From: Squalus acanthias
Taxonomy: Eukaryota
NCBI GenBank assembly: GCA_030390025.1
Contig: CM059432.1
Location: 43,588,001 to 43,652,000 of the forward strand
Direction: 5' to 3'
DNA length: 64,000 bases
Shown: positions 1-54,640 of the stretch, one piece after another
Numbering within the stretch: the stretch's first letter is position 1
Layout of the letters: each line of letters opens with the position of its first letter
Notes under the pieces: generated by a model
What the model saw: the letters and a program-made list of their open reading frames with translations, nothing else
Told to the model about the DNA's origin: nothing
Databases searched by the model: none
Program-made: the position numbers and the translations under genes

Positions 1-713
1 GCTCTTACCTACCGCGCCTGCCGTTGTGTTTTGGGCCCACGGGAACTTCGGGTCCTGGGCCTCTCCCAACTGCCAGCGCGCAGTGCTTGCGTGTTCCAGG
101 GGCGTAGTTAGTGCGATGCGTCCCCTGGGATCACGTGGGCCATGGAGAGCCAATGGCAGCAGACCATCTTTCATTCATAGATTTGACAGGAGACCTGTCA
201 AATCTGTGAATTGAAATCGGCCCCAAAAGAACAGCTAAACTTAAAATAAATTTTAAAAAAACCATCACATTTATAAAATAACTATAGTTAAATAAATTAA
301 CCACTTTAAACAAAAATTTTAATTTTTGAAAAAATTAAAATACTTTTTAAAAGTGATAAAAATAAACTTACCTTTCTTTAAAGTATCTAAAAAAGATAAA
401 CCTGTTGAAAAAAAATTAAAATTATACTTAATTAACCAGTTACCTTGTTCAAAACGGGTCCTGCGCCTCCTTTTCATTAGCGTAGGTTCTTCAATACTTA
501 ACCTCGCGTAGAAACCTGAAAAAAAATCTAAGTGTGCTGCGTGCGTGCAGCCTCTAGCGCGCACGCGGTTCACCTAGGAACCGCCCCCTTCACCATACCG
601 GAAGTTCCGGTTTCCCGCGCATGCGCAGTGCATGCAGGAAACTGGCACTTCGGGAAGCAATACGGGTGAGTACAGAGCGCGTACTCACCCGGGAAGGGAC
701 GAATTTTTGGCCC
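1..713. mobile_element. Non-autonomous DNA transposon/MITE (Harbinger-type terminus), left end outside window
   Basis: Ends in GAATTTTTGGCCC (701-713), resembling other Harbinger-type termini here. Subterminal hairpin GGGTGAGTAC-n7-GTACTCACCC (664-690). Similar to 2937-3352. No coding capacity. Confidence 0.6.
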
Positions 714-2936
714 ATTAATTAACATAACTGGTTCTCACAACCTGGAGATAATTTCCAACACACAAAACAAGAGTTTGAACACGAACCTCGGCCTTTAATA
801 AAAAAATTCCCAACATTTCGTCACACCTCCTATTTTTTGCCCTTCGAGGGTGATCTCCTTCCCTTGCGCACTTCCCCCCTTCCTACCCTACTGCTCCTCT
901 GTAATGGGGCCCCAGTGGCTGCAGCAAGGCTGGAAGAAGGCTGCTGATTGTCAGAACCTGAGACTACAGATGCCCTTGAAGGATGGCCTCGACCAGCTCT
1001 GGGCCCGGCTGCTGACTGCACCAACTCTGCATGGGCGGCAGCAGTCTGGGCTACAGGTGGTGGCAAGTGCAATGGGGAAGTGACAGTGGTGGCAGCAGGA
1101 ATGCTGTCATCTTGAAAGAGGACAGCAACTCCCTGCTCGACCGACACACTGGCACTCCCACGGGGCAGCACCTCAGCATCCGGAGCAATCTGCTGGAGCA
1201 CAGATTGCTGGCCTGCTGCGGCGCGGTGAGAGCCCCGGGGAAATGTGTCCGAACCAGCGACAATGGCAGCAGTCAGTGCTTGCGTGGCCTCAATCTGAGT
1301 CTGCATGAGACCAGTCTGAGATTGGATCACGGCAGCCAGTGACTGAATTGCAGCACTAAGCATTTGCGTGGCATCTGCCTGTGCTACAGTGTAGTGCTCC
1401 ACACTCCTTGCCAGTGCATCAATGCAATCAGGCACCCTTCCCACTGCACCCATGAGCTGAGTGTGCATGTCCACCGCCTGGGTGTTCATTTCAGCGATGA
1501 GCCACTCCTCCTCTGCGTCCAGTGCAACAGAACTTGCTGGCCTACTCTCCCTCTGGGGAGAAGGCCCCAGAGCTTCCCTAGCCACATTGCGTTGCTGCAG
1601 CCCACTGGGTCCCGGAGCTTCACCCTCATCAGACCCTTCCCCCCTGCTCCCCTCCAGGGAAGACGTGGTCCCAGTCTGGGCATGGGCTTCCTCGGGAGAG
1701 GATGGCACTGATGCTCCGACTTCCTCTTCCTCCTCGCCTGCGGCTTCGCTCCCACTGGCAGCTTGAGGGCCCGTCTCCTCAGCTGGTGAATCACCATCTG
1801 AAAGCAGGGAGGTACAAGAGTGGCTTTAGCGTAAGGACAGGGGGACAGTAAGGGAGGAACGAGTGAAGCGATTTAGTAAGTTGAATTGAAAGTGTCAAAG
1901 GCTGGTGTCGTGAGGGACAAGTGGAATGAGAGAGGAGAGAAAGCTGATGACCTTACCATTGCTGTCCTGAACGGGGTCGACCTCTCCAGGGGCGACGGGA
2001 CCGATCACCTGGCTTGCCACAATCCTGTGGAGGCGCGCCTCAAGATCGCTGAGGGGTTGCAGCTTAGGCTGCCCTCCACCCGTCCGTTGTTGCTGTCTCC
2101 TGTTATGAGATAGCTTGGCCTGCAAGAAAAAGGACGGCGTCTGAGTAAATATACAGCCATGGTCTTGCCTGATGTGCCTCTCATAGTTCAATAGCCCTTA
2201 TTGTATGCAAGGTGTGGAATGTGCGTGTGTGTTTCATAGGTGTTGGATGAGTGTTGGGCATAGGGGTTTGAAGACCCTCTGGCCATAGAGTGAGGTTGAA
2301 ATGGAGGGATGGAGAGGTATTGAAAAAAAGCCACTCACCCTGACAACCTGAGTGAGGTCGTTGAACTTTTTGCGACATTGAGTATGGGTCCTGGGCACCA
2401 TGATCCTGGAGGAGACGTGCTGAGCCACCTCCCTCCACACTCTTCTGTAGTCGCGCGGCAAAGGCCTCCTGTCACTCTCAGGGTAGAGTATAGATCTTCT
2501 GCGCTCCACCGCGCCAACCAGAGCCTCCATGGCCCGCTCGCTGAAGCGCTGAGCTCATTCTCTCACCCTCTCCATAGTCCTTGGCTGGAAAATGTAGTCA
2601 CAGGTCTCTCCAGGCCGAGATTCAAGGCTCCAATGAGCAGGGTGTGGCTGGAGAGCAAGATCGACCCTCCCCTTTAAGAACTGGCTGGTGCCAGTGTGTC
2701 TGTGTTCCATCGCTAACTGACATCACCAGCGCTGCGCCCGCGCTCTGAGTTAGCGCCTCGCTCCTCGGCCTTTGTGCCTTAAGACAGGTGTGCAGCGCCT
2801 GATTTATCACTCCAATCACCTTCAGGGGCGATAAAAGCCAAGTTTGCAGTTGGAGGCGATAATTAGCAGCAGGTGCTAAACTTTGCACCCGGACGATAAT
2901 TGCGCCCCAAAAGGGGCGATACCGAATTTCTCCCCC
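714..2936 (-). mobile_element. PIF/Harbinger transposon family A (TIR GGGGGAGAAATTCGG), Myb-gene half
   Basis: TIR CCGAATTTCTCCCCC ends at 2936, followed by TAA. Same terminus as at 31425, 28682 and 51009. Contains a 3-exon Myb/SANT gene. Confidence 0.9.
830..2575 (-). pseudogene. Harbinger Myb/SANT-like DNA-binding protein, 3 exons (2575-2339, 2119-1957, 1797-830)
   Basis: Exon 1 MERVRE*AQRFSERAMEALVGAVERRRSILYP...VWREVAQHVSS...RTHTQCRKKFNDL is a Myb/SANT (trihelix-like) motif. GT-AG introns splice in frame (phase 0, phase 1) into ORF 830..1708. One TGA at codon 7 (CGA in the 31786 copy). Confidence 0.88.
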
Positions 2937-3352
2937 TAAATATTTTAAACAAAGATGTAATTTTTAAAAAAATATTTAAAGTTTTTTAGGGGGCTAAAAA
3001 TAAATTTATCTTTTTTGAAAAGTATTTTTAAATGATAAATGAGTGAAAAAAAATTAATTTTTTAAACTTTTTTCAACTCTTATCCTGGGAAAAGCAGGCC
3101 TTTCGCCTGCTTTTATCAGCCGTAAGAATTCTGAGGGTTTTCTGCGGGCGGAGGGTCTCCAGAAAGTGGAGCTATCCGCCCGCAGAGGCCCTTCTCTAGG
3201 GCAGGCGTCCGATCTGTCAAGAGGATTCTTGACAGATTGGAAATGCCGGTTTTCAGCGCATGCGCTGTGCATGCCTGAAACCGGCATTTCCGATGTCCCT
3301 ACGGGTGTGTACACAGCGCGTACCCACCCGTAGGGATCGGAATATCCGGCCC
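2937..3352. mobile_element. MITE right-hand part, related to 1-713
   Basis: Shares GCGCATGCGC(A/T)GTGCATGC, the GGGTG..GTAC...GTAC.CACCC hairpin and terminus GGAATATCCGGCCC with 1-713. Confidence 0.6.
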
Positions 3353-4660
3353 ATTATATCCAAGTTTGCTGATGATACAAAGCTGGGTGGGAATGTAAGT
3401 TGTGAGGAGGATGCAAAGAGGCTTCAAGGGGATATAGAGAGGCAAAGTTAGTGGGCAAGAACATGGCAAATGGAATATAATGTGGAGAAATGTGAAGTTA
3501 TCCACTTTGGTAGGGAAAATAGAAAAGCAGAGTATTTTTTAAATGGTGAGAGATTGAGAAATGTTGGTGTTCAGAGGGACTTGGGTGTCCTTGTACATGA
3601 ATCACTGAAAGTTAACATGCAGGTACAGCAAGCAATTAGGAAAGCAAATGGTATGTTCGCCTTTATTACAAGAGGATTTAAGTATAAGAGTAAAGATGTC
3701 TTACTGCAATTATATAGGGCCCTGTAGGCGCACCAACGTCAGTATTCTCGCTCAGGCCAACATCCCCAGCATCGAAGCTTTGACCACGCTCGATCAGCTC
3801 CGATGGACGGGTCACATCGTCCGCATACCCGATACGAGACTCCCAAAACAAGCGCTCTACTCGGAGCTCCGACATGGCAAGAGAGCCCCAGGTGGGCAGA
3901 GGAAATGCTTCAAGGACACCCTCAAAGCCTCCTTGAAAAAGTGCAACATCCCCACTGACACCTGGGAATCCCTGGCCCAAGACCGCCCAAAGTGGAGGAG
4001 AAACATCCGGGAAGGCACCGAACACCTCGAGTATCTTCGCTGGGAGCAAGCGGAAGCCAAGCGCAAGCAGCACACGTCAACCCAGAACCCCACCCACCCG
4101 CGCCTTCAATCACCGTCTACCCCACCTGTGACAGAGACTGTAGGTCCCGCATTGGACTCATCAGTCACCTGAGAACTCATTTTTAATGTGGAAGCAAGTC
4201 ATCCTCGGTTCCGAGGGACTGCCTAAGAAGAAGAAGAGGGCCCTGTTGAGACCACACCTGGAGTATCGTGTACAGTTTTGGTCTCCTTACCTAAGGAAGG
4301 ATATATTTGCCATAGAGGGAGTGCAACGAAGGTTCACCAGACTGGTTCCTGGGATGGGGGGATTGTCCTTTGAGGAGAGATTGAGTAGACTAGGCCTATA
4401 TTCTCTAGAGTTTAGAAGAATGAGAGGTGATCTCATTGAAACATACAAAATTCTTACAGGGCTTGACAGGATAGATGTAGGGAGGATGTTTCCCCTGGCT
4501 GGGGAGTCTAGAACCAGGGGTCACAGTCTCAGAATAAGGGGTCGGCCATTTAGGACTGAGATGAGGAGAAATTTCTTCACTCGGAGGGTAGTGAATCTTT
4601 GGAATTCTCTACCCCAGAGGGCTGTGGAGGCTCAGTCGTTGAGTATATTCAAGACACAGA
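3353..4660 (+). mobile_element. CR1 LINE fragment (RT C-terminal region), interrupted by an RTE element
   Basis: [12 protein letters not shown]...EKCEVIHFG...RPHLEYRVQFWSP...RRMRGDLIETYKIL...NFFTRRVVNLWNSLP. Confidence 0.93.
3726..4236 (+). mobile_element. RTE-clade LINE, 5'-truncated 3' end
   Basis: QLRWTGHIVRIPDTRLPKQALYSEL...GGQRKCFKDTLK and C2H2-type PTCDRDCRSRIGLISHLRTH. (AAG)n tail. 10-bp TSD AGGGCCCTGT at 3716-3725 and 4237-4246. Confidence 0.92.
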
Positions 4661-7141
4661 TTAACGGCTATTCAACTATGGTATGCATGTCTGCCAGACA
4701 CATTGTTTGCACACTCACTCAAACGCTATCCTTTTTCTTGCAGGCCCAGCTGTCACATAACCAGAGGGAGCAACAATGCATAGGAGGAGGACAGGCAGAG
4801 CTGTATCCCCTCACACAACTGGAGGAGTGAGTCCACAGACTCATCGCCAGTCATGTCGTCGGCGCTGTGGCCGTTGGAGAGGTCGACCCCCTTGGGGACA
4901 GCAATGGTATGTTCATCAGCTTTATCTCCTCTCTCATACCACTTCCCCCTCGCAACACCAGCCTTTCCCACTTTCAATCTAACTATACTGTCTCCATTCC
5001 TTGCTCCCTTCATACCTCCCTGCCCTCATGTTAAAGCCACTCTTGTACCTTCCTGCTTTCAGATAGTGAGCCACCATCTGACCAGCCTGTCCCACAGCCT
5101 CCAAGTGGCAGCGACGCGGGAGAGGAAGAGGAACACGAAGCCCGCGCCTCCCAAGGGCGAGACATCCGACACTGCGGCCACGCGTTCACTGGAGGGGAGC
5201 GGGAGGTTTGGATCTGATCTGGGTGAAGCTCCGGGACCCAGTGGGCTGCAGCAACACCATGGGGCAAGGGAAGCTCGGGGGCCATCTCCCCAGAGGGTGA
5301 ATGTGCGGACGAGTTCTGTTGCACAGGACTCGGATGAGGACCTCGATATAGTGGCCGTGAATACTCAGGCAATGAGCATGCATACGGAGCTCATGGGTGC
5401 AATGGCAAGGGTGCCCGACAACATAGATGTACTGGCTAGGAGCGTGGAGGAGTCCACCGCCAGCACAGCTGTCATCTGTGCGTAAACCCTTGAACCCATC
5501 CTTGCCTTGTTGCAGAGGATGGTTGAGTTGCAGAGAGACCGTGGGGACCCAGAGCCCATGCCGCGTGTAATGGCTGATGTGGCAGGATCTATGGTGAAAT
5601 GGTGTCTTATCAGGCGTTCATGAACGGCCCTTGCAGAGGCAACATTGAGCGTCTCGCTCCCACGTTGCTGCTGCTCATCCTCCTCTTCATCCTCCTCTTC
5701 ATCCTCCTCCTCCGCCTCCTCCTTCTCCTCTCCCTCTTCCTCCTCCTGAGGTGGTGCACCAATCCCTGGTGGCAATGGCTGGGTCCTCAGAATTGCAAGG
5801 TTGTGAAGCATGCAGCACACAACAATGAAAAGCGAGACTTGCTCGGGAGAGTACTGCAGGGCTCCTCCAGAGTGGTCAAGACACCGGAACTGTTGCTTCA
5901 AGACGCCGATCGTCTGTTCAATGAGGTTCCTGGTGGCACTATGGCTCTGATTGTATTGGAGCTCAGCAGGAGTGTTGGGGTTACGGAGCGGTGTCATCAG
6001 CCAAGTTCAAAGTGGATAACCCTTGTCCCCGAGGAGCCAACCACGAGGTTGATGCGGTGCTTGGAACAGGTCTGGGACACCAGTCTGGTGCAGGGTGAAT
6101 GCATCGCGGCTGCTGCCAGGACAGCGGGCATTGACGGCGAGGATGCGCTGCCTGTGTTCACAAACCAACTGCACGTTCAGAGAGTGGAAGCCTTCGTGGT
6201 TGCGGAAAACCTCTGCATTTTCATGAGGTGCCCGCAATGCCATGTGCGTGCAGTCAATGGTGCCCTGAACCATGGGGAAGCCCGCTATCCTAGCAAAGCC
6301 ACATGCGTGTTCACGCTGTTTTTCTCGGGTCATGGGGAAGAGATGTACTCCCTTCTCCTTTGGTATAGAGCATTTGTGACCTCCCGGATGCAACAATGGA
6401 CAGCGAACTGGGAGACAATCGCAATATCCCCAGTTGAAGCTTGGAAAGAGCCGCTGGCATAGAAATTGAGAGCCACCGTCACTTTCACTGCCACCGACAA
6501 AGACGTCTTGGTCCAGAGCTGAGGCTGCAGATCTGGTTGCAGGAGGTGGCAGAGCTCAGTGACCACCTCCTTGCTGAAGTGCAGCCTTCGGAAACACTGC
6601 TCCTCAGACAAATGAATGTAGGAGAATTGCTCCCGGAATACCCTGGGAGGGTAAGGTCTCCTGTGCAGAGCCCTGTTGGCCCTCCTCCCTCGGGCCACGT
6701 TTGCCACTCTCGCTCTGCACCTCTGCTGCCTTCAAAGGTGAAGCTGGAGGACGACGCCCCGTGTTACTACAGCCCCCATTTAATCTTCTAAATATGGTAG
6801 TAATAAAGCTGGCAAAAATGGGAACCTGAAAAGTGTTGGTGAGGAACAAAACTCCTTGTAGGACAGCTAGACGCCTCTCTCAACCTGCGTAGGCAGAATA
6901 TTCTGCTGACAGGAAAAAGCAGGAAGCACATGCCTTTAAATAGCGCTCCCCCAGCTCCCAGCTGACTGCAAAACGTCCCCCTTTTTCCTAGTGGCAGGCA
7001 CTAAGGCAGGGGGCGAGAATTAATTTCCAGTTCGGGGGGCTACCGGGACGTTGCACGCTTGGATGATGTCACGATCTCTGGGTGCAAGAGATCGTGGCAG
7101 TAGTAATCAGCGCCACTGCAAACTGTCAGGTCAATTTCACG
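4661..7141. mobile_element. Harbinger family A internal fragment lacking both TIRs: Myb exons 2-3 (+, ~4744-5590) and transposase (-)
   Basis: Collinear with 32160-34780 and 830-2220. Myb exon 2 AQLSHNQREQQCIGGGQ. Begins inside intron 1. Confidence 0.85.
5590..6779 (-). pseudogene. Harbinger/PIF DDE transposase (HARBI1-like, DDE_Tnp_4 type), disrupted
   Basis: [77 protein letters not shown], acidic tail. Split by stops and frameshifts. Confidence 0.92.
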
Positions 7142-7341
7142 CCATCCCTATATAACATTGTTTTATTTATTTAATTATTTAACGTTTATGTATTTAATTA
7201 ACTTAACTTATAGTTTAGTTTTTAACTAATTACTTGATCTAGTTTAAGTTATAGGTAGATTAAATAAAATATTTACCTGTAACACAAACCACTACAAATA
7301 TTGGAGGCAAAATGCAGCACCTACTTCTCCTCTGCTTCGAA

Positions 7342-26962: not shown

Positions 26963-28790
26963 AACCATATATATCAATGACTTGGATGAAGGAACAGAGA
27001 GTTGTATATCCAAGTTTGCAGATGATGCTAAGTTAGGAGGCACAGTAAATTTGTGTAGATGGGAACTGGAAGTTACAAAGGGACATAGACAGATTAAGTA
27101 AGTGGGCAAATCTATGGCAGATTGTGATCTATATGGGGAAGTAGGAGGTCAGTCACTTTAGATCCAAGAAAGACAAATCAGAATAGTTTCTTAATGGTGA
27201 GAGATTAGGAATTGTGGAGGAGCAAATAGATTTAGGTGTACAGGTGCACAAATCACTAAAAGCTAGTGCACAGGTAGAAAAAGTAATCGAAACGGCTAAT
27301 GGAATATTAGCCTTTACCTCAAGGGGACTGAAATACAAAGGGGTGGAAGTTATGTTACCGTTGTATAAAGTTCTGGTTAGACCGCATCTGGAGTACTGGG
27401 TTGAGTTTTGGGCATCACATCTCAGGAAGGATATATTGGCCTTGGAGGGGTTGCAGCACAGATTCACCAGAATAATTATGAGGACAAGTTGCATAGACTT
27501 CATTTGTATTCTCTTGAGTTTAGAAGATTGAGGGGTAATTTAACTGAGTTGTTTAAAATGATAAAAGGAATCAATAGGCTAGACATAAAAGAGCTATTTC
27601 CTCTGGTGGAGGAATCCAAAACAAGGGGGCACAATCTTAAAATTGAAACTAGGCCAATCAGAAGTGAAATCAGGAAGCAATTCTTCACACAAAGGGTATT
27701 GGAAATCTAGAATTCACTTCCCCAAAAAGCTGTTGAGATTCGGTCAATTGAAAATTTCAAAACAGAGATTGATAGATTTTTTTTAGGTAAGGGTATTAAG
27801 GAATATGGGGGAAAAAATTCGGTTGCTTTGTGCCTCCCGTTAGCGCCATAAGAGGGTGCTAATGGGGCGCAAAGCAATTAGTGCCTGGGTGCGGCAATGT
27901 TTGCGCTGCTCGCGAAATTGACCAGACATTTTGCGGCGGCGCTAAACACTACCGCCACGATCTCTTGCGCCTGCAGATCGTGACATCAGTCGAGCGTGCA
28001 ACACCCCGGTATCGCCCCGGACCGGATATTGAGTGGCGCCCCATGCCTGCCGCTAGCAATGACAGGTTGAGGGGAGCGTTTTGCAGTCGGGAAGGGACTG
28101 GGGGAGCGCTATTTAAAGGCTTCCTGACTTTTTTTGTCGGCGACATTTTTGCACCGCATTTGAGAGAGAGAGAGAGACTTCTGGAGAGATTCAACGCTGT
28201 GTGAAGGAGTTTTGGGTACTGAGCTGCACTTTGCAGGTTCATTTTGATTTGACCTTCCTTGCATCGATTTAGAAGAGACTTGGGGGGCTGCACTCTGAGC
28301 TCTTTCCCTGGGCCTCTCCATTGTTCTTTCCAGCAGAATTGATGTACAGGTCTCTCCAGGCCGAGATTCAAGGCTGCAATGAGCAGGGTGTGGATGGAGA
28401 GCAAGATCGACCCTCCCCTTTAAGAACTGGACGGCGCCTGTGTGTCTGTGTTCCATTGCTGACTAACATCACATGAGCTTCGCCAGTGCTCTGAGGTAGT
28501 GCCTCGCTCCTCGGCGTTAGCACCTTAAGAGAGGTGTGTAGCGCCTGATTTAGCACTCCAATCACCTCCAGGGGCGATAGAAGCCAAGTTTGCAGTTGGA
28601 AACGATAATTAGCACCAGGTGCTAAACTTTGCGCCCGGCCGACAATTGCACCCCAAACGGGGCGATACCGAATTTCTCCCCCATGGAATCAAGGCTGGTA
28701 AATGGAGTTAAGATACAGATCAGCCATGATCTAACTGAATGGCAGAACAGGCTGAATAGCCTACTCCTGTTCCAATGTTCCTATGCCCTG
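26963..28790 (+). mobile_element. Degraded CR1 3' fragment split by MITE 27808-28682
   Basis: [10 protein letters not shown]...FADD...RPHLEYWVEFW. 3' end resumes at 28683. Confidence 0.88.
27808..28682. mobile_element. Harbinger family A deletion-derivative MITE (875 bp)
   Basis: TIRs GGGGAAAAAATTCGG / CCGAATTTCTCCCCC. TSD ATG. Both halves match the ends of 31425-34883. Sister copy at 50118-51009. Confidence 0.92.
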
Positions 28791-30978: not shown

Positions 30979-33191
30979 CAGTACTATTTTGAGGGGGGTG
31001 CAAAAACAGAGGGACCTGGGAGTGCATATTCACAAATCTTTGAAGGCGGCAGGGCAAGTTGATAAGTTGGTTAAGAAAGCATATGGGGTACTTGGCTTTG
31101 TAAATAGCGGCATTTAATACATACGAACATACGTACGAACATACGAATACAAAACCAAGGAAGTCTTGCTAAACCTTTACAAATCTCTGGTTATGCTTCA
31201 GCTGGAGTGTTGTGTACAATTCTGGGCACCACACTTTAGGAATGATACCAGGAATGAGGGAGTTCAGTTACATGGAGAGATTGGAGAAGTTGGGATTGTT
31301 CTCCTTTATAGCAGAGAAGGTTAAGGGCCGATCTAATAGAGGTATTCAAAATTATGAGGGGTTTTGATAGAGCAAATAGGGAGAAACTATTTCCTCTGGA
31401 AGTGCGTCGGTAACCAGAGATCATGGGGGAGAAATTCGGTATCGCCCCATTTGGGGCGCAATTATCGGCCGGGCACAAAGTTTAGCGCCTGGCGCTAATT
31501 ATCGCCTCCGACTGCAAACTTGGCTTCTATCGCCCCTGGAGGTGATTGGAGCGCTAAATCAGGTGCTACACACCTCTCTTAAGGTGCTAACGCCGAGGAG
31601 CGAGGCGCTAACACAAAGCGCTGGCGAAGCTCAGGTGATGTCAGTTAGCGATGGAACACAAACACACTGGCGCCGGCCAGTTCTTAAAGGGGAGGGTCGA
31701 TCTTGCTCTCCAGCCACACCCTGCTCATTGCAGCCTTGAATCTCGGCCTGGACAGAGCTGAACTTGAATTCTGCTGGAAAGAAGAATGGATAGGCCCAGG
31801 GAACGAGCTCAGCACTTCAGCCATCGGGCCTTGGTGGCTCTGGTTGGCGCAGTGGAGTGCCGAAGGTCAGTACTCTACCCACAGTGTGGCAGGAGGCCAT
31901 TGCCACGCGAATATAGAAGAGTGTGGAGGGAGGTGGCTCAGCACGTCTCCTCCAGGAGCCCAGGACCCACACCCAATGTCGGAAGAAGTTCAAAGACCTC
32001 ACTCGGGTAGTCAGGGTGAGTGGCTGATTTTCAATACATCTACAACCCTTCATCTCAACCTCATTCTGTGCCCAGAGGGTTTAAAAACCCCAAATGCCCA
32101 ACACTCATCCAAGACCTATGGCCATCGCATAAAACACACACGCACATTCCACACCTTGCATACATTAAGGGCTATTCAGCTATGGGAGGCAGATCAGGCA
32201 AACACATGGCTGCATACATTAAGGGCTGTTCAACTATAGGAGACACATCAGGCGAGCACATGGCTGCACATTCACTCAGACGCCATCCTTTTTCTTGCAG
32301 CCAAGCTCTCACAACAGGCGCCAGCAGCAACGCACGGGTAGAGGACCGGCTGAGCTGCAGACCCTCACCGATTTGGAGGCGCGCATGCACAGGATCGTTG
32401 CCAGCCAGGTGATAGGTGCCGTGGTTGCTGGAGAGGTCGACCCCCTTGGGGACAGCAATGGTAAGTTCATCAGCTTTCTCTCCTCTCTCATTCCACTTGC
32501 CCCTCACAACACCAGCCTTTTACACTTTCAATCCAACTTATTAAATGTCTCCAGTCCTTGCTCCCTTGCTGCCCCCCTGTCCTGACGCTAAAGCCACACT
32601 TGTACCTCCCTGCTTTTAGATAGTGAACCACCAGCTGAGCAGCCTGTCCCTCAACCTGCCAGTGGCAGCGACGCCGCAGGCGAGGAGAAGAGGAAGCCGG
32701 AGCCACAGCGCCTGCGTCTCCCAAGGGAGCCCATGCCCACACTGGGACCACGCCTTCCCTGGAGGGGAGCAGGGGGAAAGGTCTGATGAGGATGAAGCTC
32801 CGGGATCCAGAGGGCTGCAGCAATGCCATGGGGGTAGGGAAGCTCGGGGGCCATCTCCCCGGAGGGCGAGTAGGCAAGCGAGTCATGCTGCACTGGACGC
32901 AGAGGAGGCGCGCCTCATCGCGGAAATGAATAGCCAGGCCTTGAACATGCACACTGAGCTCATGGGTGCAATGGCAAGGGTGCCCGAAAGCATTGATGGA
33001 CTGGCAAGGAGTGTGGAGCACTCTGCTGCAGCACAGGCTGACGCGACGCAACGCAACGGCTTAGTGCTGCAATTCAGTCACTAGCTGCTGCCATCCAATC
33101 TCAGACTGCTCTCATGCAGTCTCAGATTGAGATAATGCAAAAATGAGAAGTCGCACAACACCAGGTTATAGTCCAACAGATTTGTTTAAAA

Positions 33192-33229
33192 TGACAAGCT
33201 TTCGGAGCTATCGCCCCTTCTTCAGGTAA
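33192..33229 (-). ncRNA. Minimal hammerhead ribozyme motif (inverted copy)
   Basis: Reverse complement of 33339-33376 with one stem I mismatch (GTCA). Confidence 0.6.
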
Positions 33230-33338
33230 AGTTACAATGAGTGAATCTACAAAAGTTCACAGAATATAAACACAGATATATATTAAACACAGATGTGTTT
33301 ATATTCTGTGAACTTTTGTAGATTCACTCATTGTAACT

Positions 33339-33376
33339 TTACCTGAAGAAGGGGCGATAGCTCCGAAAGCTTGTAA
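33339..33376 (+). ncRNA. Minimal hammerhead ribozyme motif
   Basis: TTAC-CTGAAGA-A-GGGGC(GATA)GCTCC-GAAA-GCT-T-GTAA: core CUGANGA/GAAA, 5-bp stem II, palindromic AGCU stem III, stem I UUAC/GUAA. Confidence 0.75.
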
Positions 33377-33638
33377 TTTTAAATAAATCTGTTGGACTAT
33401 AACCTGGTGTTGTGCGACTTCTCATTTTTGTCCACCCCAGTCCAACGCCGGCATCTCCGCATCATGAGATAATGCAAGCACTGACTGCTGCCATCGTCGC
33501 TGGTAAGGCCACATTGACCCGGGGCTCTCACGGTGCCACAGCAGGCCAGCAATCTGTGCTCGAGCAGATTGCTCCGGATGCTGAGGTACTGCCCCGTGGA
33601 AGTGCCAGTGTGTCGGTTGAGCAGGAAGGTGCTGTCCT

Positions 33639-33773
33639 TGCTAACTTACCTGACGAAGGAGCGAACTGCTTCGAAAGCTTGTAAAATTAAATAAATCTGT
33701 TGGATTATAACCTGGTGTTGTGCGACTTCTCATTTTTGTCCACCCCAGTCCAACGCCGGCATCTCCACATCAC
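33639..33773 (+). mobile_element. Second Penelope-like terminal fragment, with hammerhead motif at 33646-33684
   Basis: TTAC-CTGACGA-A-GGAGC(GAACT)GCTTC-GAAAGCTT-GTAA followed by the same tail as 33380-33464. No clear TSD. Confidence 0.78.
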
Positions 33774-33795
33774 ACTTTCTCAGGATGACAGCATT

Positions 33796-34373
33796 CAGAA
33801 AACCTCTGCATTTTCATGCAGTGCCCGCAATGCCACATGCGCGCAGTCAATGGCGCCCTGCACCATGGGGAAGCCCGCTATCCTAGCAAAGCGACATGCG
33901 CGTTCATGCTGTTTGACCCAGGTCATGGGGAAAGAGATGTACTGGCGTCTCCTTTTATAGAGGGCATTTGTCACCTCCTGGATACAACAATGGACAGTGA
34001 ACTGGGAGATATTGGCGATGTCCCCAGTAGATGCTTGAAAGGAGCCACTGGCATAAAAATTCAGAGCCACTGTCACCTTCACAGCCACCGACAGAGACGT
34101 CCTGGTCCTCAGTTGAGGCTGCAGATCTGGCTGCAGCAGATGGCAGAGCTCAGTGACCACCTCCTTGCTGAAGTGCAGCCTGCGCAAACACTGCTCCTCA
34201 GACAAATGAATGTAGGAGAATTGTTCCCGGAATACCCTGGGAGGGTAAGGTCTCCTGTGCAGAGGCCTGTTGGCCCTCCTCCCTCAGGCCATATTTGCCA
34301 CTCTCTCTCTGCGTCTCTGATGCCTCCGATTCTGCAGGTGAAGGACAATGCCCTGAATCAGTGCAGCCCCCAT
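33796..34373 (-). pseudogene. Harbinger transposase 5' half
   Basis: SEEQCLRRLHFSKEVVTELCHLLQPDL...ALNFYASGSFQ...GFPMVQGAIDCAHVAL. Truncated at the Myb fusion. Confidence 0.92.
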
Positions 34374-35724
34374 ACTCTCTTCTAAATTGATGCAAGGAAG
34401 GTCAAATCAAAAAGAACCTGTAAAGTGCTGCTCAGTACCCAAAACTCCTTCACACAGCATTGAATCTCTCCAGAAGACTCTCTCTCTCTCTTTGAATCTC
34501 TCTCTCTCTCTCAGAATGCCTGGTGCAAAAATGTCGCCGACAAAAAAAGGCAGGAAGAGGCCACCTTTAAATAGCGCTCCCCCAGCCCCTTCCCGACTGC
34601 AAAACCATCCCCTCTACCTGTCGTTGCTAGCGGCAGGTGGAAAGGCAGGGGGCGCCACTAAATATCCGGACCGGGGCGCTACCGGGGCATTGCACACTCA
34701 ACTGACATCACGATCTGCGGGCACAGGAGATCGTGGCGGTAGTGTTTAGCGCTGCTGTAAAATGTCTGGTCAATTTCGTGAGCGGCGCAAACATCGCTGC
34801 GCCCGGGCACTAGTTGCTTTGCGCCCCGATAGCGCCCTCTTAGGGCGCTAATGGGAGGCGCTAATCAACCGAATTTTTCCCCTCATTGATTTAAAATAAT
34901 TGGCAAAAGAACTAGAGGGGAAATGAAGAGAAATGTTTTCACACAGAGGGTTGTTAAGATCTGGAATGCACTACCTGAAAGGGTGGTGGAATCAGATTCC
35001 ATAGGAACTTTTAAAAGGCAATTGGACACGTATTTGAAGAGGACTAATTTGCAGGGTTATGGGGAAATAGCTGGGGCGTGGGACTAAGTTGGACTGCTCT
35101 TTCAAAGAGCCAGTACAGGCATGACGGGCCGAAAGGCCTCCTTCTGTGCAGTAAGATTCTATGATTCTACAACAATAACTTGCTAGAGATTCAGGGCATG
35201 ATCTCTCAAAATATGTCGGTGCTAATACCATCACGTCTGCCCTCCCACTGATCAATCGGCACTTAGATCCAGCACACAGCACTAGTGATGCGCCTAGAAT
35301 CTGTCTCCCCTGATGACAGCTCATATGGCCAGTTTAACCAGCTCCCTCAGATATCTTCTCATGTAGATGTCAGAATACTAGACCATGCTGCCCAAGCATC
35401 TGCAGTAATGATGCAGCCTGTTGAAGACTCCTTCCATGGGCTGGATTTTGTCAGTGTAGGCTGGCTGGGGCGTGTCAGGTGGAAATCGTGTCAGGACCCC
35501 GACTCCCAATTGAAGTGCTGAAAAAGTGGGATTTTCCCCTAATTGGGTAATTGATTTCCAGCGTGTGGGAACCCCTGGCCCAATTAGTCTTTCCATCCAG
35601 AAAGTCGGCTCCGATGATGTCATCAGTGCTGCTGCTTTTAAGGCCTGCTTTTTTAAGGAAGCTTTGCTTCTTCTGGAGACTGCAATCTTAATGCTGATTG
35701 TACTGAGGAATTTATTGTACGAAT

Positions 35725-50117: not shown

Positions 50118-51009
50118 GGGGGAAAAATTCAGTTGGTTGCGCCTCCCGTTAGCGCCTTAAGAGGGCGCTAATGGGGCGCAAAGCAACTAGCGCCCGGGCG
50201 CGGCGATGTTTACGCCGCTCACGAAATTAACTAGACATTTTGCAGCAGCGCTAAACAATACCGCCACGATCTCCTGCGCCGGCAGATCGTGACGTCAGTC
50301 GAATGCACAACACCCCGGTAGCGCCCCGGAGCGGATATTGAGTGGCGCCCCCTGCCTTACCGCCTGCCGCTAGCAACGACAGGTTGATGGAAGCGTTTTG
50401 CAGTCAGGAAGGGACTGGGGGAGCGCTATTTAAAGGCGACCGCTTCCTGCCTTTTATTGTTGGTGACATTTTTGAACCACGCATTCTGAGAGAGAGAGAG
50501 AGAGACTTCTGGAGAGATTCAACGCTGTGTGAAGGAGTTTTGGGTACTGAGCAGCACTTTGCAGGTTCATTTTGATTTGCCCTTCCTTGTATCGATTTAG
50601 AAGAGAATGTGTGGGCTGCACTCTGAGCTCTTTCCTTGGTGCTCTCCATTGTTCTTTCCAGCAGATTTGATGTACAGGTCACTTCAGGCCGAGATTCAAG
50701 GCTGCAATGAGCAGGATGTGGATGGAAAGCAAGATCAACCCTCCCCTTTAAGAACTGGCCGGCGCCATTGTGTGTGTGTTCCATTGCTGACTGACATCAC
50801 ATGTGCTTCGCCAGCGCTCTGAGGTAGCGCCTCGCTCCTCGGCGTTTGCGCCTTAAGACAGGTGTGAAGCACCTGATTTAGCGCTCCAATCACCTCCAGG
50901 GCGATAAAAGTGAAGTTTGCAGTCGGAGGCGATAATTAGCGCCAGGCGCTAATCTTTGCGCCCGGCCGATAATTGCGCCCCAAATGGGGCGATACTGAAT
51001 TTCTCCCCC
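50118..51009. mobile_element. Harbinger family A deletion-derivative MITE (second copy)
   Basis: Collinear with 27808-28682, including the internal junction. TIRs present. TSD not preserved (CAT/TAG). Confidence 0.9.
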
Positions 51010-54089: not shown

Positions 54090-54640
54090 TTCTTTATTTG
54101 TCTCGGGATGTGGGGGTGACACTGGAAAGACCACATTTATTACCCATCTCTAGTTGAGAAGTCGCACAACACCAGGTTATAGTCCAACTGGTGTTGTGCG
54201 ACTTCTCATTTTTGTCCACCCCAGTCCAACACCGGCATCTCCGCGTCATCATCTCTAGTTGCTCAGAGATGGTGGTGGTGGACCTTGAAGGGGAATTTGG
54301 AGGTGATGGTGTTTCCATGACATTGTTGTTCTTATCCTTATCCTTATCAGAGATCACAGGGGAGGCAGGTGCTGTCACGATAACCTTGGCGAATTGTGGC
54401 AGTGCATCCTGCAGATCATACATATTGCAGCCACAATGCACTCCGTGATGCACTGCTGGCAGGGCTTGAAGCAGAGAATGTTCAGACTGGCCAGAATATG
54501 CAGCACCATTGGAACATCGATGCTATCATGGCATTGCAGCACAGCAGGCCACTTTGGAGTATGAATCAGAGGCGTCCTAAGGACAGTCTGTGCTCTGGGC
54601 ATGTTCAGACTGCTGCCACAGGGGCCTAGATACCACAGTG
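54090..54640 (-). mobile_element. Degraded 3' end of the HER1-type LINE family
   Basis: Reverse complement resembles 45600-46075 (ATGGGTAATAAATGTGG...CCCACATCCC). Confidence 0.65.
54157..54249. mobile_element. Third Penelope-like terminal fragment with a short inversion
   Basis: 12-bp TSD CATCTCTAGTTG (54145-54156, 54250-54261). TGAGAAGTCGCACAACACCA / TGGTGTTGTGCGACTTCTCA inverted pair. Same tail as 33430-33464. Confidence 0.8.

What the first reader, a model, noticed from the sequence alone, without database searches (positions are those of the whole stretch)
33339..33684. Two tandem, same-strand minimal hammerhead ribozymes inside a Harbinger Myb exon
Seen: two separate Penelope-like insertions each place CUGANGA-stem II-GAAA-GCU-U on the sense strand of Myb exon 3, 307 nt apart. 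Stem II differs between them (GGGGC/GCUCC vs GGAGC/GCUUC) but stays fully paired, and both have stem I UUAC/GUAA. Known: Penelope-like elements carry minimal hammerheads whose palindromic stem III makes them work as dimers. Inference: the two motifs could dimerise in cis, cut the Myb transcript after U33372 and U33680, and release a ~308-nt RNA that might circularise. That would be a retroelement-donated self-cleaving switch inside a DNA transposon gene.
Basis: partly seen in the sequence, partly recalled or inferred. Interest (0 to 1): 0.72.

Follow-up and report, generated by a model that had tools for sequence, protein, structure and literature searches.

The report
Ordinary ribozymes at Penelope landing hotspot
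The two ribozyme-like motifs are real but are the ordinary tails of two separate copies of a very common jumping gene that landed in a broken transposon; one motif is predicted to be locked in a long hairpin, so a self-cutting switch is unlikely, while the second copy sits at a spot hit dozens of separate times in this genome, likely because it matches a mirror-image DNA pattern preferred by the jumping gene's cutting enzyme.

Summary
Both minimal hammerhead motifs are present as described (33339-33376, 33646-33684). Each is the standard 3' end of a Penelope-like element (PLE) with about 16,000 ends in this shark-like genome. The proposed switch is not supported. The host Harbinger copy is dead: a frameshift stops Myb after 74 codons, and a 1,182-bp deletion removed the transposase catalytic region. 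No usable RNA reads were found.

The stronger result lies beside the finding. Insertion 2 occupies a recurrent PLE landing site in the Harbinger Myb exon, GCTGTC-[12 bp]-GACAGC: 30 sense and 37 antisense junctions, against about 0.2 expected per orientation; two control stretches have 0. Unselected PLE insertions duplicate 12 bp inside a loose mirror-symmetric motif, CnnTGnC-N12-GnCAnnG, which likely reflects a paired endonuclease cut. I found this preference in none of seven paper searches. The scan noted it earlier on other DNA (CR1 and SINE hotspots; unreviewed notes).

The parts
31425..34883 (+). Defective PIF/Harbinger DNA transposon copy (terminal inverted repeats, 3-bp CAT duplication at 31422-31424 and 34884-34886)
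   Evidence: ends; 90.5-93.1% identical to the more complete copy L224
31786..32010 (+). Myb/SANT-like gene, exon 1: a 7-bp deletion shifts the frame and gives a TAG stop after 74 aa
   Evidence: the homologous exon of L224 hits Pfam Myb_DNA-bind_5 at 22.1 bits (cut-off 21.7)
32620..33796 (+). Remnant of Myb exon 3 (several frameshifts, two PLE insertions, 3' part deleted)
   Evidence: splice acceptor inferred by homology
33128..33140 (+). Left target duplication of insertion 1 (13 bp maximal; right copy 33465-33477). Poor match to the preferred target (score about -1.6 bits)
   Evidence: empty site in L010
33141..33464 (.). PLE insertion 1: inverted 5'-truncated pLTR joined to a direct pLTR plus tail; predicted 137-bp RNA hairpin (33137-33274 with 33294-33431)
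   Evidence: (z = -32)
33192..33229 (-). Third minimal hammerhead motif on the inverted arm (stem I weakened: UUAC/GUCA)
33339..33376 (+). Minimal hammerhead motif 1 (putative cut after U33372), predicted buried in the hairpin
33631..33636 (+). Left half-site GCTGTC of the PLE hotspot; only 2-3 bp of the left duplication remain in this copy
33639..33774 (+). PLE insertion 2: young 136-bp 3' fragment, 99.3% identical to several other copies
33646..33684 (+). Minimal hammerhead motif 2 (putative cut after U33680)
33775..33792 (+). 12-bp target CTTTCTCAGGAT and right half-site GACAGC of the hotspot
33794..33797 (.). Junction of a 1,182-bp deletion (TTC microhomology) that removed the Myb 3' end and the DDE catalytic region of the transposase
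   Evidence: against L224; the deleted L224 segment holds DDE_Tnp_4 (E 1.6e-30)
33797..34385 (-). Remnant of the N-terminal part of the Harbinger transposase

Best explanation
The two motifs are the normal hammerhead-bearing 3' ends of two independent, truncated Penelope-like insertions in a dead Harbinger copy, and they are likely inert here because motif 1 is predicted to be locked in a 137-bp hairpin, while insertion 2 lies at a recurrent landing site that likely exists because it matches a mirror-symmetric target preferred by the element's endonuclease. Shown: the family has about 16,000 3' ends and an intact 892-aa RT plus endonuclease copy; it usually duplicates 12 bp inside a loose dyad, CnnTGnC-N12-GnCAnnG; the Harbinger Myb exon carries GCTGTC-N12-GACAGC, and dozens of independent insertions in both orientations use exactly that 12-bp window. 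Inferred: two endonuclease units, probably a dimer, each read one half-site and nick opposite strands 12 nt apart, and either nick can prime reverse transcription from the pLTR/tail. That would give both orientations at the hotspot and fold-back insertions like insertion 1. Two same-strand motifs 307 nt apart are then a by-product of one hotspot hit plus one ordinary hit.
For: PLE identity: shared 3' end in 30 of 30 loci; L223 ORF, 916 aa stop to stop, 892 aa from ATG; RVT_1; 92% and 85% to shark proteins; many homologs list PF01541, recalled as GIY-YIG. Copy number: 5,992 exact 25-mer ends and 15,939 15-mer ends. Hairpin and dimer cost. Dead host. Hotspot: 30 sense and 37 antisense junctions, against 5,670 exact empty sites and 9,518 right-half 14-mers. 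Random expectation is 0.11-0.44 per orientation, or 0.18 for 9,518 sites (arithmetic). Controls: 0 and 0 over 31 positions each; the first anchor has 22,695 copies and 1.5 expected. Independence: 38 distinct orientation/length combinations among the 40 of 60 loci with a callable length; near-identical flanks in only 3 of 435 sense and 2 of 435 antisense pairs. General motif: 66 of 90 unselected loci have a duplication, mode 12 bp (27). In those 27: C at -7 in 18, T at -4 in 17, C at -1 in 16, G at +1 in 24, C at +3 in 14, A at +4 in 17, G at +7 in 19; left/right symmetry r = 0.83. Held-out 13/14-bp sites (n = 30, one at the hotspot) score above shifted controls, p = 3e-14. Without calling duplications: G at +13 in 34 of 89 and at +19 in 42 of 89 (p = 4e-4 and 1e-7). 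Genome-wide, GACAGC lies 12-17 nt after a PLE end 210 times, against 18 at 20-25 nt. Loose-end consensus behind the PLE end shows G at +13 in 4 of 4 runs from other coded organisms, with weak agreement of 0.35-0.43.
Against: The matrix from unselected sites gives the hotspot about 7 bits and ranks it 1st to 9th of 3,600 positions in four empty copies (12th to 24th on flanks alone). The single-position enrichment is roughly 1,400-fold, and the site mismatches the strong +/-7 positions. A rough half-site product (about 34 squared) closes the gap, but that estimate is inflated by a second repeat hotspot. The energy model ignores Mg2+, tertiary contacts and protein help, and I ran no positive control on a native tandem PLE; a transcript starting inside the hairpin loop would escape the arm. 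The 13-mer anchor used was not counted itself, so expectations are slightly low. All 90 unselected loci come from the first 63 Mb of one contig and carry one exact 25-mer, so older subfamilies are under-sampled. Symmetry of integration sites shows symmetric recognition, not a protein dimer.
Confidence: 0.85

Rival explanations
1. One reading: the two motifs dimerise in cis in a + strand transcript, cut it twice and release a 308-nt RNA that may circularise and regulate the Myb gene.
For: Both cores are intact and the dimer topology is nested and feasible. Cores are conserved across subfamilies, with variable N7 and loop II and one compensatory pair in stem I (U-A to C-G, 17 of 221 parsed ends). 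Dimeric PLE motifs show low cleavage in vitro (PMC4209133). A same-strand pair under 1 kb apart is uncommon (1 of 90 loci).
Against: HHR1 is predicted fully paired to an upstream arm (ddG 84.6 kcal/mol). Even without the arm the dimer is 8-11 kcal/mol above the ensemble, and HHR2 stem II pairs with probability about 0.09. The Myb frame stops in exon 1. The locus was not amplified. The Anolis PLE motif needs the PLE protein to cleave and is dispensable for insertion (PMC11167929).
Confidence: 0.04
2. The hotspot reflects targeting beyond the linear motif, such as a cruciform at the 7-bp inverted arms, local chromatin, or tethering to Harbinger proteins.
For: The observed enrichment exceeds the independent-position matrix about tenfold. 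The site is a perfect TGCTGTC/GACAGCA inverted repeat.
Against: Left and right flanks of unselected insertions are no more complementary than the matrix predicts (p = 0.28 and 0.25). GACAGC is also enriched after PLE ends outside Harbinger (15 of 30 fetched loci after correcting one false flag; about half of the 100 rows listed, by hand count). An unrelated repeat with TGTGTC-N12-GACAGC is also hit repeatedly.
Confidence: 0.15
3. The apparent hotspot is a few old insertions multiplied by Harbinger transposition or by segmental duplication.
For: A few loci are near-duplicates (L040/L060, L041/L042).
Against: Both orientations occur, with many PLE subfamilies, tails and truncation lengths, and host flanks that are only 65-78% identical at the median.
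Confidence: 0.03

Closest known systems
Minimal hammerheads (min-HHR) in pLTRs of metazoan Penelope-like elements (Cervera and De la Pena 2014, PMC4209133; parts 1-2 of 4 of the text read)
   Same: [quoted passage not shown]
   Different: Helix II is 5 bp here (7-8 bp in the Schistosoma families). The same-strand pair comes from two independent insertions, not from tandem pLTRs.
Endonuclease-positive PLEs, Neptune/Nematis type (PMC8557442 and PMC3846280, passages read)
   Same: RT followed by a C-terminal endonuclease with a CX2-5CxxC linker (CHGNLCKTC), an inverted 5'-truncated pLTR, a 30-40-bp tail and a short target duplication.
   Different: The described insertion bias is toward microsatellites; here it is a loose 26-bp dyad around a 12-bp duplication. 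The clade was not tested by a tree.
PAc (Poseidon of Anolis) in vitro system (Frangieh et al. 2024, PMC11167929; parts 1-2 of 4 read)
   Same: It cuts and extends both strands, is predicted to be a dimer, has a protein-assisted hammerhead that is not needed for insertion, and its tail arises from internal RT start sites.
   Different: PAc prefers AT-rich DNA (ATT) on the substrate tested; no dyad target or fixed stagger was reported in the parts read.
Non-LTR retrozymes (PMC7229834, passages; bioRxiv 10.64898/2026.07.22.740005, part 1 of 5 and passages)
   Same: Two type I hammerheads about 300 nt apart could in principle release a circle.
   Different: Retrozymes are amplified tandem repeats of one unit. 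Here the spacer is Harbinger sequence, the motifs belong to different subfamilies, and the locus is single.
Site-specific retrotransposons such as R2 and Tx1 (recalled, not from a call)
   Same: Repeated insertion at one base of a multicopy sequence.
   Different: Under 1% of PLE ends are at this site (about 100 of 15,939, estimated); it is a preference, not homing.

Membership tests
PLE minimal hammerhead (min-HHR) | CUGANGA, GAAA and UH core with helix II and a short helix I | tested here: met
PLE minimal hammerhead (min-HHR) | Extra nucleotide between 9 and 10.1, G10.1-C11.1 pair, palindromic helix III positions (AGCU) | tested here: met
   sequence, against the features listed in PMC4209133
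PLE minimal hammerhead (min-HHR) | Stem covariation across copies | tested here: inconclusive
   one compensatory pair in stem I (one subfamily); stem II varies only through G-U; the outer stem I pair is broken in 70 of 221; 47 of 500 shuffles reach the score
PLE minimal hammerhead (min-HHR) | Located in the pLTR of a PLE | tested here: met
PLE minimal hammerhead (min-HHR) | Self-cleavage as a dimer | not testable with these tools
   only contigs were available; folding predicts HHR1 buried
Rfam hammerhead families | Score at or above the gathering threshold | tested here: not met
   0 hits in the window; a permissive E-value search was not run
Non-LTR retrozyme | Tandem repeats of one hammerhead-bearing unit, amplified as such | tested here: not met
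   the spacer is Harbinger exon sequence; the compound locus is seen once
Endonuclease-positive PLE | Single ORF with RT and C-terminal GIY-YIG endonuclease | tested here: met
   L223 ORF; RVT_1; the GIY-YIG-like motif VVYLI..WYIGET is seen by eye and did not hit Pfam; homologs list PF01541 (name recalled)
Endonuclease-positive PLE | Inverted truncated pLTR, tail and target duplication | tested here: met
   insertion 1; 66 of 90 loci with a duplication
Neptune or Nematis clade | CX2-5CxxC linker before the endonuclease | tested here: met
   feature from PMC8557442
Neptune or Nematis clade | RT phylogeny with named references | not tested
   no named clade references were at hand
PIF/Harbinger | Terminal inverted repeats, 3-bp duplication, DDE transposase and Myb/SANT gene | tested here: met
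   (domains scored on the relative L224); defining features recalled
Autonomous Harbinger or functional Myb gene | Intact reading frames in the window copy | tested here: not met
Site-specific retrotransposon | Most copies at one target | tested here: not met
   1 of 90 unselected loci at the Harbinger site; 67 exact junctions among 15,939 ends

The most novel reading that the evidence does not exclude
This shark PLE is a dispersed retrotransposon whose endonuclease works as a two-fold symmetric nuclease: it reads a 26-bp dyad (CnnTGnC-N12-GnCAnnG) and nicks both strands 12 nt apart, with either end able to prime. A perfect pair of core half-sites in the Myb exon of a Harbinger family with about 10,000 such sites makes that exon a standing sink in which one transposon keeps interrupting another. 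This would give the first defined DNA substrate for testing the PLE dimer mechanism.
Probability: 0.6. Interest if true: 0.6.

Novelty: new variant of a known kind. Interest (0 to 1): 0.42.

Why it matters
The ribozyme pair itself is ordinary and probably silent. The target result matters because how PLEs choose and cut their targets is largely open. The one in vitro system reports AT-rich cutting of both strands and a predicted dimer, and genomic surveys report microsatellite bias. A mirror-symmetric consensus, a fixed 12-bp stagger and a natural high-use site, with an intact ORF in the same genome, make the dimer and two-ended priming model directly testable. They also explain nested PLE-in-Harbinger insertions without homing or co-option.

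Tried and rejected
Rfam scan at gathering thresholds: 0 hits.

Sequencing runs: all 15 runs are kept as contigs, none holds half of the sampled words, and only one is on record as RNA (a small-share gut metatranscriptome). No back-joint or end pile-up at 33372/33680 was among the rows shown (26 joints not shown). The depth step after the cut site also appears in the unclassified genome-sized run X11, so it says nothing on cleavage. These data can neither show nor exclude cleavage.

Hotspot in other organisms: no contig bridging the PLE-Harbinger junction was among the 32 pieces listed (12,378 not shown).

Complex prediction of two copies of PLE residues 1-170: no verdict (0.51, 0.09, 0.12; mark 0.32; alignment not used).

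Cruciform recognition: no extra flank complementarity.

Reciprocal hotspot (Harbinger inside the PLE hammerhead, from earlier notes): a crude regex over my loci found no case (one unrelated hit).

One search used a mis-numbered structure and is superseded. The arm comparison was out of register; one search gives the pairing. The simple duplication finder gave false 8-9-bp calls and was replaced by the junction-validated one.

Left out before counts: 10 of the 100 ends listed were not fetched (one duplicate of L029, two close pairs, the last five); 24 of 90 loci had no validated duplication; 7 of 37 antisense hotspot loci were not fetched.

Literature: seven searches showed no paper describing a palindromic PLE target or a PLE hotspot in Harbinger. 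The library lacks most subscription papers and Repbase, and no supplements were read, so a prior description may exist.

Full report
Observation. Both motifs are at the stated places (parsed): HHR1 at 33339-33376 and HHR2 at 33646-33684, with putative cut sites 308 nt apart. Rfam does not report them at gathering thresholds. They carry the features that PMC4209133 (parts 1-2 of 4 read) lists for PLE minimal hammerheads: an extra base between 9 and 10.1, G10.1-C11.1, a palindromic AGCU and a short helix I. A third copy lies on the minus strand at 33229-33192.

What carries them. Each motif sits about 90 nt from the 3' end of a Penelope-like element. The same end recurs in all 30 loci fetched. 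The genome holds 5,992 exact 25-mer ends and 15,939 15-mer ends. One locus, L223, has an intact 892-aa ORF with RT (RVT_1), a CX4CX2C linker and a GIY-YIG-like end, the layout given for Neptune/Nematis elements in PMC8557442 (passages read). Its closest named homologs are shark proteins. Across 275 distinct PLE ends anchored outside the core, 221 parse to the motif. N7 and loop II vary freely, stem II stays paired through G-U changes only, and stem I has one compensatory pair in one subfamily, while its outer pair is broken in 70 of 221. On ten aligned variants, 47 of 500 shuffles reach the covariation score. This fits a motif kept in the PLE lineage, and it is weak as covariation proof.

Insertion 1 (33141-33464) is the published PLE layout: an inverted truncated pLTR, a direct pLTR with tail, and a 12-13-bp duplication (layout in PMC8557442 and PMC3846280, passages). 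A + strand RNA folds into a 137-bp hairpin (z = -32; pairs) in which HHR1 pairs base for base with the minus-strand motif. The arm lies upstream, so it is made first. The last two values are not decisive, because the model ignores ions and protein and I ran no positive control; the 74 kcal/mol difference is due to the arm.

The host. The Harbinger copy spans 31425-34883 with a CAT duplication. Exon 1 of its Myb-like gene has a 7-bp deletion and stops after 74 codons, exon 3 has further frameshifts, and a 1,182-bp deletion right after insertion 2 removes the Myb 3' end and the segment that holds DDE_Tnp_4 in the relative L224. There is no product to regulate. The compound element was not amplified: among 30 sense hotspot loci only the window has two sense motifs. 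Same-strand pairs under 1 kb apart occur in 1 of 90 unselected loci, and opposite-strand motifs in 34 of 90. Published minimal PLE motifs cleave weakly as dimers (PMC4209133). The Anolis one cleaves only with PLE protein, is not needed for insertion, and left no read ends in RNA-seq (PMC11167929, parts 1-2 of 4 read). The available runs are contigs and cannot test cleavage.

The hotspot. Seven of the first 30 loci, the window included, ended at the same Harbinger position. Exact pattern searches gave 30 sense and 37 antisense junctions at GCTGTC-[CTCTCTCAGGAT]-GACAGC, against 5,670 exact empty sites and 9,518 copies of the right 14-mer. Random insertion predicts 0.11-0.44 per orientation. Two control stretches of 31 positions in the same exon gave 0 and 0; the first anchor has 22,695 copies and 1.5 expected, and the second was not counted. 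The duplication is the same 12 bp in both orientations. Of 60 fetched loci, 40 had a callable length and gave 38 distinct orientation/length pairs; near-identical flanks occurred in 3 of 435 and 2 of 435 pairs. These are mostly independent events. They are still under 1% of all PLE ends.

Why that site. I took 90 of the first 100 ends listed. Sixty-six had a junction-validated duplication, with lengths 9:2, 10:3, 11:3, 12:27, 13:17, 14:13 and 16:1; microhomology with the PLE ends likely explains the longer calls. The 27 exact 12-mers show C(-7), T(-4), C(-1) | N12 | G(+1), C(+3), A(+4), G(+7), with p values from 4e-4 to 1e-13 and left/right symmetry r = 0.83. G at +1 is 24 of 27, against 7.3 expected from the calling rule alone. 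The matrix separates 30 held-out sites from shifted controls (p = 3e-14). Without calling duplications, G is enriched 13 and 19 nt after the PLE end (34 and 42 of 89). Genome-wide, GACAGC follows a PLE end at 12-17 nt 210 times and at 20-25 nt 18 times, and about half of the former are outside Harbinger (hand count of the 100 rows listed). In four runs of other coded organisms the loose-end consensus has G at +13 in all four and at +19 in two, at low agreement. Against a complete explanation: the hotspot scores about 7 bits, ranks 1st to 9th of 3,600 positions and lacks the +/-7 bases, while its single-position enrichment is near 1,400-fold (arithmetic). Squaring the half-site enrichment (about 34) gives about 1,100, but a second repeat hotspot inflates that figure. 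Flanks are no more self-complementary than the matrix predicts, which speaks against cruciform reading. Insertion 1 is at a poor site, so the preference is loose.

Mechanism. Shown: symmetric target, 12-bp duplication, both orientations, recurrent use. Inferred: two endonuclease units, likely a dimer as predicted for PAc in PMC11167929, nick opposite strands 12 nt apart and either end primes. Fold-backs like insertion 1 would arise when both ends copy the pLTR. The hammerheads ride along.

Comparison and novelty. The motifs, the fold-back layout and dual motifs are known. A dyad target with a fixed stagger for a dispersed PLE did not appear in seven searches (listings seen, seven papers read in part, among them PMC3681739 and PMC7229834 as passages and bioRxiv 10.64898/2026.07.22.740005 as part 1 of 5 plus passages; no supplements; Repbase not searchable). 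Unreviewed scan notes, opened after my analysis, report the same kind of palindromic preference through CR1 and SINE hotspots in this and another genome, and the converse Harbinger hotspot in the PLE hammerhead. They are not independent evidence.

Verdict. Observation largely right; switch not supported (about 4%). The locus is an ordinary nest of dead transposon pieces that exposes a real, testable target preference of the PLE. Interest 0.42.

Noticed in passing
L206, L216, L221, L222 (3' flank), L142: A second, unidentified repeat with TGTGTC-[12 bp]-GACAGC is also hit repeatedly by the PLE (about 9 of the 100 rows listed, by hand count).
   Followed up: partly
L196, L218 (3' flank): A third repeat with CACTGCT-[12 bp]-GACAGC carries PLE insertions at the same position.
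   Followed up: no
window 54140-54262: A very short fold-back PLE stub without a hammerhead, with an 11-12-bp duplication (CATCTCTAGTTG).
   Followed up: partly
window 31275-31424 and 34884-35170: The Harbinger copy sits inside a LINE-like fragment (family label recalled), so the nest is LINE > Harbinger > two PLEs.
   Followed up: no
window 713-2960, 4660-7283, 27803-28684, 50118-51009: Further copies and ~890-bp internal-deletion derivatives of the same Harbinger family; at least 59% of the window matches repeats in the fetched loci.
   Followed up: partly
L223:2817-7048 (-): Partial-tandem PLE with an intact 892-aa ORF next to a truncated copy; a candidate active source element for biochemistry.
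   Followed up: partly
PLE 3' ends in L031-L120: The first duplicated base is mostly T and the last mostly A in unselected sites, matching the PLE's own next bases (TGACC tail, AAAAATGAG inverted start); this may be priming microhomology rather than nuclease preference.
   Followed up: no
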